DNA from: the human T2T-CHM13v2.0 reference genome, Homo sapiens
Assembly: GCF_009914755.1 (NCBI RefSeq)
Contig: NC_060932.1
Length of the DNA: 64,000 nt
Direction: 5' to 3' (one strand)
The notes under the pieces were generated by a model. The model was not told the DNA's origin, ran no database searches, and saw nothing but the letters and a program-made list of their open reading frames with translations. The position numbers and the translations under genes are program-made. The first letter of the stretch is position 1. Every line of letters begins with the position of its first letter. Positions 32,200-47,140 of this stretch are shown here, in pieces.

Positions 32200-32870
32200 A
32201 GCAGGCGTTGTGTGGGCGCGTCTTTAGTAGGGTCACCTCTTGGATTGTGCACACACCCCAAAGCTTGCAACCCCCACGCTTTCTCCAAACCAAGGGCTGC
32301 CCCCAAGGAAACCTCCAGCCGACCCCCGCCCGCACGTCGGAACCCCTCCAGACCCGCGAGCCCCCAGAGTACCTTAAGCGATTCCTTGAAATCCTCCGTG
32401 TCGTCCGGCACATCCTCATAGACAACGCCCTGGGGCTCCTTCTTTTCTCCAGGGCGCCACATCTTCCTCAGGCTGCGCTTCATTGACCCCACCCCGGACG
32501 CCACCTGGTGCAGCTGCTCACCACGCGCGCGGGCACCTGGGGCGAGAGAGCGCTGTCAGCCTGCCAGGCGCTGGGGTCCGCGCGAGCCCGAGCTCTCCCG
32601 CGCTGCAGCTCACAGGCAGCGAAAAAGTCGCTCTGCGGAAGCCCTGGAGAACTTCTGGAAGGAGTTCTCAGGCCCGCGCTACTTTTGTAGTGCAGGAAGC
32701 AGGCGGGGCGCGGAGAGGAGGTAGAAACGCGGACCTCCTTCGCAAAGAGGGCGGCGGCGCCGCGTCTGCCTTGGACTCGCCCCTTCAGGGACAAAGTGAC
32801 TCGCCCGTCCCGCTGTCCTGCAGCTGCAGCAGCGCACTGACGGAGTCAAGCGTGTCAGGTCGGGGTGGAT
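32200..32870 (-). promoter_or_regulatory. TRPA1: TRPA1 CpG-island promoter and 5' UTR
   Basis: Dense CpG/GC in an AT-rich background; TATA-like TACAAAA (32689-32683); GC box GGCGGGGC at about 32702; TSS expected near 32658; E-boxes CAGGTG/CAGCTG in the UTR. Confidence 0.88.
32373..32483 (-). CDS. TRPA1: TRPA1 coding exon 1 (aa 1-37, MKRSLRKMWRPGEKKEPQ...KESLK)
   Basis: ATG at 32483-32481; translation matches the human TRPA1 N-terminus; donor AAG|GTAC at 32372; 111 nt. Confidence 0.98.
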
Positions 32871-32933
32871 TGCAGAGAATTTGTTATAATAAACTAAGAG
32901 GCCCCTTGCCCTGCCCCCCAACCTTGCATGTGA

Positions 32934-32969
32934 GTGTGTGTGTGTGTGTGTGTGTGTGTGTGTGTGTGT
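32934..32969. repeat. (GT)n microsatellite about 280 bp upstream of the TSS
   Basis: Direct reading. Confidence 0.95.
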
Positions 32970-43263: not shown

Positions 43264-46200
43264 CTTGCACATTCTACTTTTTCTTATGATTTTCCTTAAT
43301 TTTAACAATCACACTTAAGCTTAAGATTTTTATCAAACTCAAGAGTTAATTATTATATCTTTCTCATTTAGAATATAATAAGCTTAGGTCTTCCTTTATC
43401 ACTTCTCCCATCCATAGTTATACATTCTGTAATTTTTATCATTCTTTGTCTCGTATTCAAATTAGTTTTTCCGCATTCTGTACACACATAATTCTTCCAG
43501 AGGTGGTATGTTGGTACTAAAATTTCTTTTAGCTTTTACTGTACTGAAATTGTCCTTATTTTGGCTTCCTATTGAATAATTGTTTAAATAAATACAAAAT
43601 TCTTTCACAGTTGTTTTCTCCAGAAATTGGAAGATTTTGACGTTACTTCTTAATATCAATTTTGCAGATACAGTGTCATATCAATCTGTTTCTAATTCAT
43701 TTCTTTATAAGTTATTTTATTTTCTCTCTAAACTCTTTTAGAATTTTTATATTCCTTCTTGGTATTCTGAAATATCACCACTATGCAACTCAATAAAGAT
43801 TTTCTATTGTTTACCTTGTTCTGTACTCTAAAACAATTATTGGGAAATATCATTTCAATCCAGTAATTATCTTTCTTTGGCTTTGGGAAATTTTATTCCA
43901 TTATATTGGTATTATTATTTATTTCTGCATATCTCAGTCATCTTTTCATGGCAAGTGGTAGAAAAACACAACTAAAATGACTTAACAAAAAGATAAACTA
44001 ATTGATCCCAGTACTAAAATGGCCTATGTTGGTACTTATTTAAGTACCAGAGTCTCACTCTCATTAAAGCTGATTTTCTCTTTCTTTTAATTTTTTTTAT
44101 AGGAAGAAATTTTACTACTTCTTTGAAGGCTCACCTCTTTATCTATGGCAGCCTCAGGCTGAAATCTTCCAAGTTTATGTCCAGTGGTATGGTGACTGAA
44201 TTTTCTACCAGCTCTGTAAAACTCCATGGTGTATTACTGGCTGTAATTGGGTTATGATTTCAATTTCTTAGCTAGTCACCATAGCCAGAAAAACAATAAT
44301 CTGATTATGCAGACCTGAGATTCATGCCCTCTGTTGAAATCAGGCATGGAGCCAGCTTTACCCAAATTGAATTTGAGTAAACTCAGAATGGATTGAGAAT
44401 GAGACAAGAATAGTTTCCATTGCCCTAAGAGAAACTGAAGTATGCCGTTGGCAAAAGAAGGAGGAATTGATGTTCAGTGTCTATTTCTAGCTGAACATAT
44501 AGATGCTCCTGTACTTTCCATTTTCTCTGTCTGATTTTTCTGAGTGCATATTAAAATTTCTTAACCCATTTTCCTTGTATCTTAAGCTTATCATTCACAT
44601 TTTTTCTTTGTCCTTTTATATTGTATTATAGGAATATTCTTTGAGTTGATCTTTCAGCCCACTGTTTTGTTTTTCAGTTATATGGATCTATCAAATATAT
44701 ATATATATATATATTTTAATTGCATGAAGAAAGTTTTATTTCAAAGTCTCCAATTGAGTCTTTGTCAATGTAACATATTCTCACATTTTAAATTTTATTT
44801 TATTCTAATGCCCTGCTTTGCTTGTCCTATTAACCTCATTTTCTCATTATAATAATGTTAGTTCCTTCTAATGTTCAATAATCTCTCTGCTCATTTTTGT
44901 ATTTTAGATCTCTGTCCACTTACCTCCTCTAGTCACTAAGATCAGTCTCTGATGACAGAGGCTGGCTGTGCCGCTAGGAGGGCAGCTCTATGTGCTTCAG
45001 CTCCCATTCTGGGAACAGGAGCTCCTTGTCCTTCCTGGAGCATTGCTCTGCCTCAGGGCCCACTTGCCCACACTCTGCCTTAGCCTATGGGCAGACACTT
45101 TTGCTGCCTGTTGCTTAGTACAGATCAGAGAGGGGAGTGGTGCTTGCTAGCCTAGCTCTCACCTTCGTTTCTCAATTAATAACTTGTCTGATGAATGCTT
45201 GAAGCTGTCTTTGTATCTTGTGGCAATTGACTTTGTGTTCAGATCTCCTCCTTCACTCTTCCCATCACAGCATTCTTTTGCTTATGTTTAGTTCATGTTT
45301 TGCTTCAGTTTAACAACTTTGTATATTCAATCCTATCTACTGTCTATCTTTCCAGAATCCTTTAACATTTCTAGTCTGTTGGTGGCATTCTTTTTTTCAC
45401 CCTGTTTTGGATTTACTTTTTCTTTGAAAACTTTTTTTTTTTTTTTTTTTTTGCTGTTTTATAGGATTTCAGATGGGAAGGAGGGTAGATATGCATGTTT
45501 AGACAACAATCTCAATCCAATTGCTTTCTTTTAGTTTCTGTGTAATTAAAAAATTCTATTCTGTTTCTTCCAAATCATATGGAAAGGAGAAAATAACTTT
45601 ATAGCCTGTCTTGAAATATTTGAATGACAGAAAAGTATTGGGTCAGGGAGGAAGGAAGGAGCTAATGTTCATTGAGAGTCTACTACTCATCAAGCTGTGT
45701 CTTTAGTTTGATGACAACTGAGTTCCAGATGGAAAATTTTGTTTAATATGGATAAGTAATGAGATAAATTACACACCCACACCCACACACCACTTTGACA
45801 TCTATGAAATGCTGTTTTCTACTGGTAATCAGAGAAACTTAATGTACTTTGTTATAGAGAAACCTAAGCATATCTTGCTCTTTCTACTCCCCAGAAGACA
45901 AGCTGATATACACAGGTTATCCAAAGCAGCACCATTCCCAGGGCTCTTGGCAACCATGATCTAGAGTGACTATTAATGCAATTAATAAAAAGCCAAATCT
46001 GATAAGATTATTTAAAATGTGAGATATTAAAAAAGCTAATTAAGTTGGCCTCCAGACAAAGGAAATCGTGCTAAGAGTCATTTGTTTTACAGCAAATCGT
46101 ATTTCAAATTTTAGAATAAAATAAGATGTATACATGTATCTTATTTGTATTAAATTCTTGTGACTATGCACATATTTTATTACTTAACTTAATCAGATGA

Positions 46201-47012
46201 TGAACTTAATCATTCTGTTGTGAATTTTTAATTCTAACTATTTAACCTGAAGCAGTTGCCAAAATTTAAAATGTTTCCGTGATATCTGCCAGTGAATGAG
46301 AGATATAGTAGATTTCTCTAAATACAAGTAATACTTTATAGGATTTGGAAGTACAATTTAAGGTACTTATTAATTATAAAAATCTTCTATGGTGCAACTT
46401 TCCTTGCTATGCACTTAATTTATACCCAGATCATTTCACACCACAACCCACACGAGTAAGACCACAAAAAAAAGTTCTTATCTCATGAAGAATCTTTGCT
46501 ATTTAATAATTTTATTATATGTGGAAGCTTTAGAATACTGAGCTACTTTATTATATAAAAATATTTTATTGTATTTATCTTAAGCAGCTAACACAATATC
46601 TTTAGTTCAAAGTTTGTCTTCAGTCTATAAAGACATTCTTGTTTGACTGTTTCAAAAATATACTAATTTATCCCAGTCTAGAGGAAACCTTTTTAGGATT
46701 CTAAGACACAAGCTTCTCAGTGAATTCTAGACAACCACAGCTCAAAAAATTCAAACAAAATTAGATGTATAAAAGTTTTTACCTCATCTAGTTCATGGTG
46801 GTAACTATGTCAGATTGAAACAAAATAACATTAAGTATAAAATGAGAACTTTGTTTTTACAGTTAAAATCCAAACTGGCATTCAGATGTATATGTTAGTA
46901 TAATAATTATACTTATTTTATATATCAGAAACCTGTACTCATCTTGTGAAATACATGCCTTATCCTTTAAAAATTGGAAAGTTACAAGATATTGAAGAAA
47001 AGGTATGCTTAC

Positions 47013-47140
47013 CTTTCTTCATGGAAATTGACATCCTGTTTCTGATGTTACACAGGCATAAATAATCAAGCGGAGAAGTGTTCCTTTCCTCACACAGGCA
47101 ATAGGTTGCACCCACTTTAATAGTCCCATATAATTATATA
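47013..47140 (-). other. Candidate distal alternative first exon/promoter of TRPA1 (coding part 47034-47013, MSISMKK+G)
   Basis: TATATAA at 47140-47134; aggATG at 47034; donor AAG|GTAAGC at 47012; phase matches an acceptor at 32537 in the exon 1 UTR. Confidence 0.55.

What the first reader, a model, noticed from the sequence alone, without database searches (positions are those of the whole stretch)
32484..47140. Hidden distal first exon splices in frame into the TRPA1 5' UTR: predicted 25-aa N-terminally extended channel
Seen on the minus strand: TATATAA at 47140-47134, then aggATG TCA ATT TCC ATG AAG AAA G|GTAAGC (47034-47013; strong donor, phase 1). Independently, the exon 1 UTR contains a textbook acceptor: branch GCTGAC, tract CTCTCTCGCCC, CAG|G at 32537/32536, exactly 53 nt before the ATG. 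22+53 = 75 nt with no stop, giving MSISMKKGARARGEQLHQVASGVGS-MKRSLRK. The second ATG would give a 21-aa extension. A 3-codon uORF (ATGCCTGTGTAA, 47059-47048) precedes it. Inference: a second, CpG-poor TATA promoter 14.4 kb upstream could drive a tissue-specific isoform independently of the CpG island. A computationally predicted isoform of this kind may already be annotated, but I know of no functional study.
Basis: partly seen in the sequence, partly recalled or inferred. Interest (0 to 1): 0.8.

Follow-up and report, generated by a model that had tools for sequence, protein, structure and literature searches.

The report
Annotated upstream first exon of TRPA1
The upstream exon and its in-frame splice into the start of the human pain-sensor gene TRPA1 are real in the sequence, but they are already in RefSeq gene models and the extra 25 amino acids show no sign of being preserved by selection.

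Summary
That covers the TATATAA, the 3-codon uORF, the ATG at 47034, the donor after 47013, the branch/tract/AG acceptor at 32537|32536, and 22+53 = 75 open nucleotides.

The junction is not hidden. The hub's RefSeq table lists exons 47013-47074 and 32373-32536 in other TRPA1 transcripts, with exactly the predicted boundaries.

The same N-terminally extended protein is annotated in two New World monkeys: Sapajus (1144 aa) and Callithrix, which has an in-frame 4-aa gap.

From sequence alone the pattern is not beyond chance. There are 3 such candidates in the 31.3 kb upstream, and shuffles average 1.48.

The extension is 20/25 identical between human and Sapajus, against 91.7% for the rest of the protein. 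That matches a neutral simulation.

Ten literature searches found no study of this isoform. All 7 distinct TRPA1 sequences in the PDB lack it.

Verdict: a real, already annotated, probably minor alternative-promoter transcript. The extension is most likely a tolerated by-product. Expression, translation and function could not be tested here.

The parts
47134..47140 (-). TATATAA heptamer, candidate TATA box
   Evidence: Read. It starts 66 nt upstream of the annotated exon start at 47074. It is one of 8 such heptamers on this strand in the 31.3 kb upstream of exon 1.
47013..47074 (-). Alternative first exon (62 nt) of a RefSeq TRPA1 transcript other than NM_007332.3
   Evidence: Hub annotation table; sequence. 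A 301-nt query around it found only itself in the genome.
47048..47059 (-). 3-codon uORF (ATG CCT GTG TAA) inside the alternative first exon
   Evidence: Its ATG has T at -3 and C at +4, a weak context.
47013..47034 (-). First 22 nt of the extended ORF: ATG1 at 47034 (A at -3, T at +4) and ATG2 at 47022 (T at -3); the exon ends in phase 1
32537..47012 (-). Intron of 14,476 nt, from GTAAGC to CCCCAG
   Evidence: Donor and acceptor read and scored. The boundaries equal the RefSeq exon ends in the hub table.
32537..32560 (-). Branch-point-like GCTGAC (32560-32555), pyrimidine tract and AG of the internal acceptor. The TGA inside GCTGAC is the in-frame stop of the unspliced leader.
32484..32536 (-). 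53 nt that are 5' UTR in NM_007332.3 and become codons 8 (part) to 25 of the extension
   Evidence: RefSeq exon 32373-32536 appears under other transcripts in the hub table.
32373..32483 (-). Canonical coding part of TRPA1 exon 1. The canonical ATG at 32483 has T at -3 and A at +4.
   Evidence: Hub table.
38236..38322 (-). A second alternative first exon that uses the same 32536 acceptor. Its ATGs are out of frame, so it would encode the canonical protein behind a short uORF.
   Evidence: Hub table. It is preceded by TT, not AG, and its donor is TGA|GTAAGT.

Best explanation
This is a genuine but minor alternative 5' end of human TRPA1, and it is already in RefSeq.

Proposed mechanism:
- Transcription starts in CpG-poor DNA about 14.4 kb upstream of the CpG-island promoter and makes a 62-nt first exon (47074-47013).
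- That exon is spliced to an acceptor inside canonical exon 1 (32536). A second upstream start exon (38322-38236) uses the same acceptor.
- On the 47-kb transcript a scanning ribosome first meets a weak-context 3-codon uORF. It then meets ATG1 at 47034, the only one of the four ATGs with a purine at -3.
- ATG1 is in frame with the channel ORF, so most product from this mRNA would be a 1144-residue TRPA1 carrying 25 extra N-terminal residues. Leaky scanning would add some 21-residue-extended and some canonical protein.
- The extra peptide is short, basic (+3), not hydrophobic, and not visibly under selection. Any biological meaning most likely lies in promoter choice and leader, not in the peptide. 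The extension is a tolerated by-product.

Shown: the sequence features, the frame, the match to RefSeq, and the orthologous annotated proteins.
Inferred: that the transcript is made in vivo, where it is made, which AUG is used, and that the peptide is neutral.
For:
- The donor scores 8/9, as good as the best of the 17 annotated TRPA1 donors. The acceptor tract falls within the range of the 16 annotated acceptors.
- The acceptor is shared by a second annotated start exon.
- Sapajus apella TRPA1 P0001 is 1144 aa (1119+25) and starts with the orthologous extension. Callithrix P0009 does too, with a 4-residue in-frame gap.
- Kozak contexts: ATG1 has A at -3; the uORF ATG, ATG2 and the canonical ATG all have T at -3.
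- Extension identity between human and Sapajus is 20/25, against 631/688 (91.7%) for the following 687 residues. Only 1 of 27 later 25-residue windows scores lower.
- A neutral substitution simulation expects 3.8-6.5 amino-acid changes against the 5 seen. It gives a 24-44% chance of keeping the ATG, the frame, GT and AG (the divergence values 0.08-0.14 are recalled, not measured).
- N-terminal additions are tolerated. 3xFLAG-hTRPA1 is functional in HEK293T (PMC13008260, passages). An MBP-TRPA1 fusion was solved as 3J9P.
Against: - No RNA evidence (junction reads, CAGE), Ribo-seq or peptide evidence could be consulted. The support level of the RefSeq models is not visible to me.
- The two monkey proteins are themselves gene models. 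Both are platyrrhines, so they count as one independent lineage. Annotators only report an extension where the frame is open, which is an ascertainment bias.
- The TATA box is not at the canonical distance from the model's 5' end.
- The supplement of a proteomics survey of translated 5' UTRs does not contain TRPA1: 0 occurrences in the 1 file held (PMC11317171).
- With only 25 residues, weak purifying selection cannot be excluded.
- Work on the N-terminal tip shows that this end of the channel can matter (PMC8828769).
Confidence: 0.55

Rival explanations
1. Transcriptional and splicing noise captured by an automatic gene model. Rare transcripts start upstream and find the good donor and the exon 1 acceptor. 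The frame is open by chance and no meaningful amount of extended protein is made.
For: - The sequence pattern is expected by chance: 3 candidates seen, shuffles average 1.48, and 81% of shuffles have at least one.
- An in-frame join has a prior of 1 in 3, and the GC-rich leader has few stops.
- The peptide is not visibly constrained.
- No paper on this isoform turned up in searches.
- TRPA1 is absent from the held supplement of PMC11317171.
Against: - The same exon-to-acceptor join heads the annotated protein in two New World monkeys. The exon, donor and ATG have therefore persisted, and gene builders picked them up independently in other species.
- The donor is as strong as the best constitutive TRPA1 donors.
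Confidence: 0.27
2. A functional, anthropoid-specific TRPA1 proteoform. The 25-residue cap changes gating, sensitivity or trafficking through the N-terminal tip, in tissues that use the distal promoter.
For: - Deleting residues 1-25 or 1-61 of hsTRPA1 abolishes the ultrasound response and raises AITC sensitivity. Swapping the tip has similar effects (PMC8828769, passages).
- Arthropod TRPA1 isoforms that differ only in first-exon-encoded N-termini gate differently (PMC11471635 and PMC4929936; only the starts of the abstracts were seen in search listings).
- The ATG, the frame and an in-frame 12-nt indel are kept in platyrrhines.
Against: - The extension is among the least conserved 25-residue windows of the protein and matches the neutral expectation.
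- N-terminal tags of similar or far larger size leave the channel functional or assembled.
- There is no expression or protein evidence.
- The peptide has no recognisable motif, no hydrophobic stretch (maximum 9-residue hydropathy 0.63) and a low-complexity S/G/A-rich composition.
Confidence: 0.1
3. A regulatory leader only. The upstream-exon mRNAs serve to change the translation efficiency of the canonical protein through the uORF and upstream AUGs. The canonical AUG remains the main start.
For: - A uORF sits 13 nt before ATG1.
- The sister transcript from 38322 carries an out-of-frame uORF and encodes only the canonical protein.
Against: ATG1 has the best context of the four AUGs and comes first after a weak-context uORF, while the canonical AUG has T at -3. 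By the scanning model, bypass of both in-frame upstream AUGs should be the minority outcome.
Confidence: 0.08

Closest known systems
RefSeq predicted TRPA1 transcript(s) with first exon 47013-47074 joined to 32536 (hub table, RS_2025_08 on T2T-CHM13v2.0)
   Same: Identical exon ends, identical junction, and hence the same 75-nt in-frame extension.
   Different: None in structure. I could not see the model's accession, its annotated CDS or its evidence.
TRPA1 of Sapajus apella (P0001, 1144 aa) and Callithrix jacchus (P0009, 1102 aa) as annotated in public protein sets
   Same: Both start with the orthologous upstream-exon residues and read through the former leader into the canonical Met. Identity to the human extension is 20/25 for Sapajus and 18/25 plus a 4-residue gap for Callithrix.
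   Different: They are other species and are gene models, not experimentally shown proteins. Sapajus differs from human at positions 2, 6, 10, 22 and 24 of the extension.
Arthropod TRPA1 N-terminal isoforms from alternative first exons: Drosophila TRPA1(A)/(B) and the three Tropilaelaps TmTRPA1 isoforms
   Same: In both, an alternative first exon gives a different amino terminus on an otherwise identical TRPA1 channel.
   Different: There the alternative exons replace one another and the isoforms have demonstrated differences in gating. I saw only the starts of the abstracts in listings (PMC11471635; PMC4929936). Here a short peptide is added in front of an unchanged protein and no function has been shown. 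The exons are not homologous.
Mouse Trpa1a/Trpa1b splice variants
   Same: This is the only mammalian TRPA1 isoform pair with a reported function that my searches turned up.
   Different: Trpa1b skips exon 20, which encodes a transmembrane region, is not a channel itself, and raises surface Trpa1a. This is as described in passages of bioRxiv 10.1101/362855, which cites Zhou et al.. It has nothing to do with the 5' end.
N-terminally extended proteoforms from translated 5' leaders (survey in PMC11317171)
   Same: Former 5' UTR sequence is read in frame to give an N-terminal extension.
   Different: From the start of that paper's abstract (search listing), it reports 192 translated upstream regions found by proteomics. 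Here an AUG in a separate upstream exon opens the frame. TRPA1 is not in the one held supplement file of that survey.

Membership tests
Alternative-first-exon (alternative promoter) mRNA isoform | A distinct start exon upstream of, and exclusive with, the 5' part of the canonical first exon | tested here: met
   The hub table lists exon 47013-47074 and sets the gene's 5' limit at 47074. The canonical exon 1 starts at 32658.
Alternative-first-exon (alternative promoter) mRNA isoform | Consensus GT donor and branch/tract/AG acceptor at the join | tested here: met
   The donor matches 8/9 consensus positions. The acceptor has 12/17 pyrimidines plus CAG, within the range of the annotated TRPA1 sites.
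Alternative-first-exon (alternative promoter) mRNA isoform | Direct RNA evidence: a capped 5' end and junction-spanning reads | not testable with these tools
   No RNA-seq, CAGE or long-read data are on hand. The human DRG long-read paper mentions TRPA1 only once, as the name of a nociceptor subtype among those whose gene isoforms were detected; it gives nothing on the TRPA1 5' end (PMC10634934).
N-terminally extended proteoform | An upstream AUG in frame with the main ORF and no intervening stop | tested here: met
   75 nt are open, from ATG1 at 47034 to the canonical ATG at 32483.
N-terminally extended proteoform | Evidence of translation (initiation profiling or a peptide) | not testable with these tools
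   TRPA1 has 0 occurrences in the 1 held supplement file of PMC11317171. All 7 distinct PDB TRPA1 sequences start at the canonical Met or at a tag.
N-terminally extended proteoform | Coding-type conservation of the extension | tested here: inconclusive
   The frame and the ATG are kept in two platyrrhine models. However, identity is 20/25 against 91.7% for the rest, and this matches the neutral simulation. No nucleotide alignments were available.
TATA-box core promoter | A TATA element about 25-35 nt upstream of the start site (spacing recalled) | tested here: inconclusive
   TATATAA starts 66 nt upstream of the model's 5' end. Model 5' ends may be truncated. The heptamer occurs 8 times in 31.3 kb on this strand.
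uORF-bearing leader | An AUG-stop ORF wholly within the leader, upstream of the main start | tested here: met
   The uORF lies at 47059-47048, inside the annotated exon. Any regulatory effect was not tested.

The most novel reading that the evidence does not exclude
The distal CpG-poor promoter drives TRPA1 in a particular non-neuronal cell type of anthropoid primates. The resulting 1144-residue channel, with a 25-residue basic cap on the functionally sensitive N-terminal tip, would differ from the textbook channel in chemical or mechanical sensitivity or in surface delivery. Part of human TRPA1 physiology would then be carried by a proteoform that no functional study found in my searches has used.
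Probability: 0.1. Interest if true: 0.5.

Novelty: already known. Interest (0 to 1): 0.2.

Why it matters
TRPA1 is a major irritant and pain sensor and a drug target. Every expression construct and solved structure I could see uses the 1119-residue protein.

If the extended form were made in some tissue, it would sit in front of the N-terminal tip. Deleting that tip changes agonist sensitivity and abolishes the ultrasound response (PMC8828769). A second promoter would also bear on how TRPA1 is switched on outside sensory neurons.

As things stand, the exon and junction are already in public annotation and the peptide looks unconstrained. The practical value is modest. It is a reminder that an annotated but unstudied isoform exists and can be checked cheaply in public RNA data.

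Tried and rejected
- **Transposon-derived promoter or exon.** A 301-nt query around the exon matched only itself in the window's genome. That rules out a young high-copy repeat. The search skips very common words and may miss old, diverged copies, so an ancient element is not excluded.
- **A three-exon form, 47074-47013 / 38322-38236 / 32536.** I rejected this as the likely model because 38322 is preceded by TT, not AG. If it existed, the upstream ATG would end after 12 codons.
- **Literature.** Ten searches gave no paper on this exon, junction or extension.
  - The accession numbers used were recalled guesses. Two of them occur in PMC8828769 as the source of hsTRPA1. That paper numbers residues by UniProt O75762 and never uses the word 'isoform', so it does not show use of the extended form.
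  - The Pharmacol Rev TRP review had no hit for my four TRPA1 isoform terms in the 300,000 characters held.
  - The mouse long-read paper found 4 known Trpa1 isoforms and gave no detail on 5' ends in the passages I saw.
  - bioRxiv 10.64898/2026.09.19.752904 had nothing on a TRPA1 promoter.
- **Cross-species DNA.** No primate genomes are on hand, so I could not align the ATG, donor and frame at the nucleotide level in apes, Old World monkeys or strepsirrhines. The protein database clusters at 90% identity. Extended models of closer primates, and the human one itself, may therefore be hidden inside the 92-member cluster P0005, whose representative starts at the canonical Met.
- **Folding.** I did not fold the extension. 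The joined human sequence is not a window-encoded protein for the fold tools, and a 25-residue S/G/A-rich tail would not give a meaningful model.
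Full report
**The observation**

I read the three places on the minus strand and joined the exons by coordinates in a script.

- TATATAA lies at 47140-47134.
- A 3-codon uORF lies at 47059-47048.
- There is an ATG at 47034 and a second at 47022.
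- The exon ends at 47013 in phase 1 and is followed by GTAAGC.
- Inside canonical exon 1, GCTGAC lies at 32560-32555. A C/T tract and CAG follow, with the first exon base at 32536, 53 nt before the canonical ATG at 32483.

22 + 53 = 75 nt with no stop. The second ATG gives 21 extra residues. In the unspliced canonical leader the same frame is closed by the TGA inside GCTGAC, so the splice removes the stop.

**Is it more than chance?**

From sequence alone it is not. On this strand, the 31,342 nt upstream of exon 1 contain 18 donors that match the 9-mer consensus at 8 of 9 or better. Three of these are preceded by an ATG-opened, stop-free run in the one phase that fits the 32536 acceptor. Their last exon bases are 56083, 47590 and 47013.

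Two hundred block-wise shuffles gave 1.48 such sites on average, and 81% of shuffles had at least one. TATATAA occurs 8 times and TATAWAW 60 times in the same stretch.

The splice sites themselves are good. The donor scores 8/9, equal to the best of the 17 annotated TRPA1 donors in the window. The acceptor has 12 of 17 pyrimidines, inside the 9-16 range of the 16 annotated acceptors.

The hub's RefSeq table lists exons 47013-47074 and 32373-32536 under 'exons of other transcripts' and sets the 5' limit of the gene at 47074.

**What else is there**

The table also lists exon 38236-38322. It is preceded by TT rather than AG and ends in TGA|GTAAGT. It is therefore a second start exon using the same 32536 acceptor, not an internal exon. 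Its two ATGs are out of frame and open a short uORF, so that transcript would encode the canonical protein.

The internal acceptor is thus used by two annotated upstream start exons.

The DNA around the 47-kb exon is CpG-poor: GC 0.32, CpG o/e 0.05, and one CpG in 800 nt. The exon 1 island has GC 0.60, CpG o/e 0.74 and 54 CpGs.

A 301-nt query around the exon found only itself in the window's genome. It is therefore not a young high-copy repeat, although an old diverged element is not excluded.

**Relatives**

I searched the large protein collection with the translation of 32534-32373, asking for longer proteins. It returned TRPA1 of Sapajus apella (P0001), which is 1144 aa, that is 1119 + 25, and covers the whole query.

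A second search with residues 1-62 of P0001 added a Callithrix jacchus entry, P0009. Both start with the orthologue of the upstream-exon residues and read through the former leader into the canonical Met. The marmoset entry lacks four residues just before that Met, which is an in-frame gap.

The chimpanzee-headed cluster (P0005, 92 members) and the aye-aye protein (P0010) start at the canonical Met. Because the collection is clustered at 90% identity, extended models of closer primates may be hidden inside P0005.

These are gene models, and both monkeys are platyrrhines, so they amount to one independent lineage. An extension is only annotated where the frame happens to be open.

**Is the peptide under selection?**

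The human extension is identical to Sapajus at 20 of 25 positions, differing at 2, 6, 10, 22 and 24. The next 687 residues encoded in the window give 631 identities over 688 alignment positions (91.7%). Only 1 of 27 later 25-residue windows scores lower than the extension.

Against Callithrix the extension has 18 identities, 3 mismatches and 4 gaps.

I ran a substitution-only simulation from the human sequence at divergences of 0.08, 0.11 and 0.14. These values are recalled, approximate human-platyrrhine neutral figures, not measured here. The ATG, open frame, GT and AG all survived in 44%, 33% and 24% of trials. Survivors had a mean of 3.8, 5.2 and 6.5 amino-acid changes.

Five observed changes is what no constraint predicts. 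So retention in New World monkeys is compatible with neutrality and is not evidence for a coding function.

**How it most likely works**

On the 47-kb transcript the first AUG, that of the uORF, has T at -3 and C at +4. ATG1 has A at -3. ATG2 and the canonical AUG both have T at -3.

By the scanning model (established knowledge), most ribosomes should pass the uORF AUG or finish its three codons and then start at ATG1. That gives the 1144-residue protein. Some would start at ATG2 or at the canonical AUG, and all three are in frame. This is inference, and no translation data were available.

The extension has net charge +3 and mean hydropathy -0.38. It has no hydrophobic stretch (maximum 9-residue window 0.63) and is rich in S, G and A. 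Nothing suggests a signal or anchor.

N-terminal additions to human TRPA1 are tolerated. 3xFLAG-hTRPA1 responds to AITC in HEK293T cells (PMC13008260, passages). The first cryo-EM structure used an N-terminal MBP fusion (3j9p chain of 1528 residues).

On the other side, deleting residues 1-25 or 1-61 of hsTRPA1 abolishes its ultrasound response and raises AITC sensitivity (PMC8828769, passages). This end of the protein is therefore not inert.

My best reading, at about 0.55, is a real but minor alternative-promoter transcript whose extension is a tolerated by-product. The rivals are:

- Pure transcriptional noise captured by a gene model (0.27).
- A functional primate proteoform (0.10).
- A leader that only tunes translation of the canonical protein (0.08).

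**Comparison with what is known**

Structurally this is the RefSeq model, so the finding is already known as annotation.

Functionally, the nearest analogues are the arthropod TRPA1 isoforms whose alternative first exons give different amino termini and different gating: Drosophila TRPA1(A)/(B) (PMC11471635) and the Tropilaelaps isoforms (PMC4929936). I saw only the starts of their abstracts in search listings. There the N-termini replace each other and function is shown. Here a short cap is added and nothing is shown.

The one mammalian isoform pair with a reported role, mouse Trpa1a/Trpa1b, concerns exon 20 (passages of 10.1101/362855).

Ten literature searches found no paper on this exon, junction or extension.

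- TRPA1 does not occur in the one held supplement file of a proteomics survey of translated 5' UTRs (PMC11317171).
- All 7 distinct TRPA1 sequences in the PDB start at the canonical Met or at a tag.
- Subscription-journal papers, and supplements not held as text, could still contain something.

**Verdict**

Novelty is 'already known'. Interest is low (0.2). There is a 10% chance that the extended channel is a physiologically distinct proteoform, which would be of moderate interest.

Noticed in passing
window 38236-38322 (-): A second annotated alternative start exon of TRPA1, preceded by TT rather than AG, with donor TGA|GTAAGT. It joins the same internal acceptor at 32536. Its ATGs are out of frame and open a short uORF that ends inside exon 1.
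   Followed up: partly
window 18703-18712 (-): The annotated TRPA1 exon ending at 18712 is followed by GC, not GT (CAG|GCAAGT). This is a GC-AG intron in the constitutive gene.
   Followed up: no
window 47251-47259 (-): An inverted CCAAT-box-like TGATTGGTT lies about 115 nt upstream of the TATATAA. It was not tested against chance.
   Followed up: no
proteins P0002, P0003, P0004: These are short ORF calls in unnamed 'lgn'/'ena' records. They begin in primate-like TRPA1 exon 1, two of them in the leader frame of the extension, and read on past the exon 1 donor into intron sequence. They look like primate DNA in non-primate data sets, called by a prokaryote-style gene finder.
   Followed up: no
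window 32556-32558 (-): The only in-frame stop between the internal acceptor region and the canonical ATG frame is the TGA inside the branch-point-like GCTGAC. It lies 19-21 nt upstream of the acceptor AG, so use of the acceptor is exactly what opens the frame.
   Followed up: yes
protein P0005: The representative of the 1119-aa ape/human cluster (Pan troglodytes) has Cys at residue 3 where the window encodes Arg. That is 1 mismatch in the 687 residues compared.
   Followed up: no
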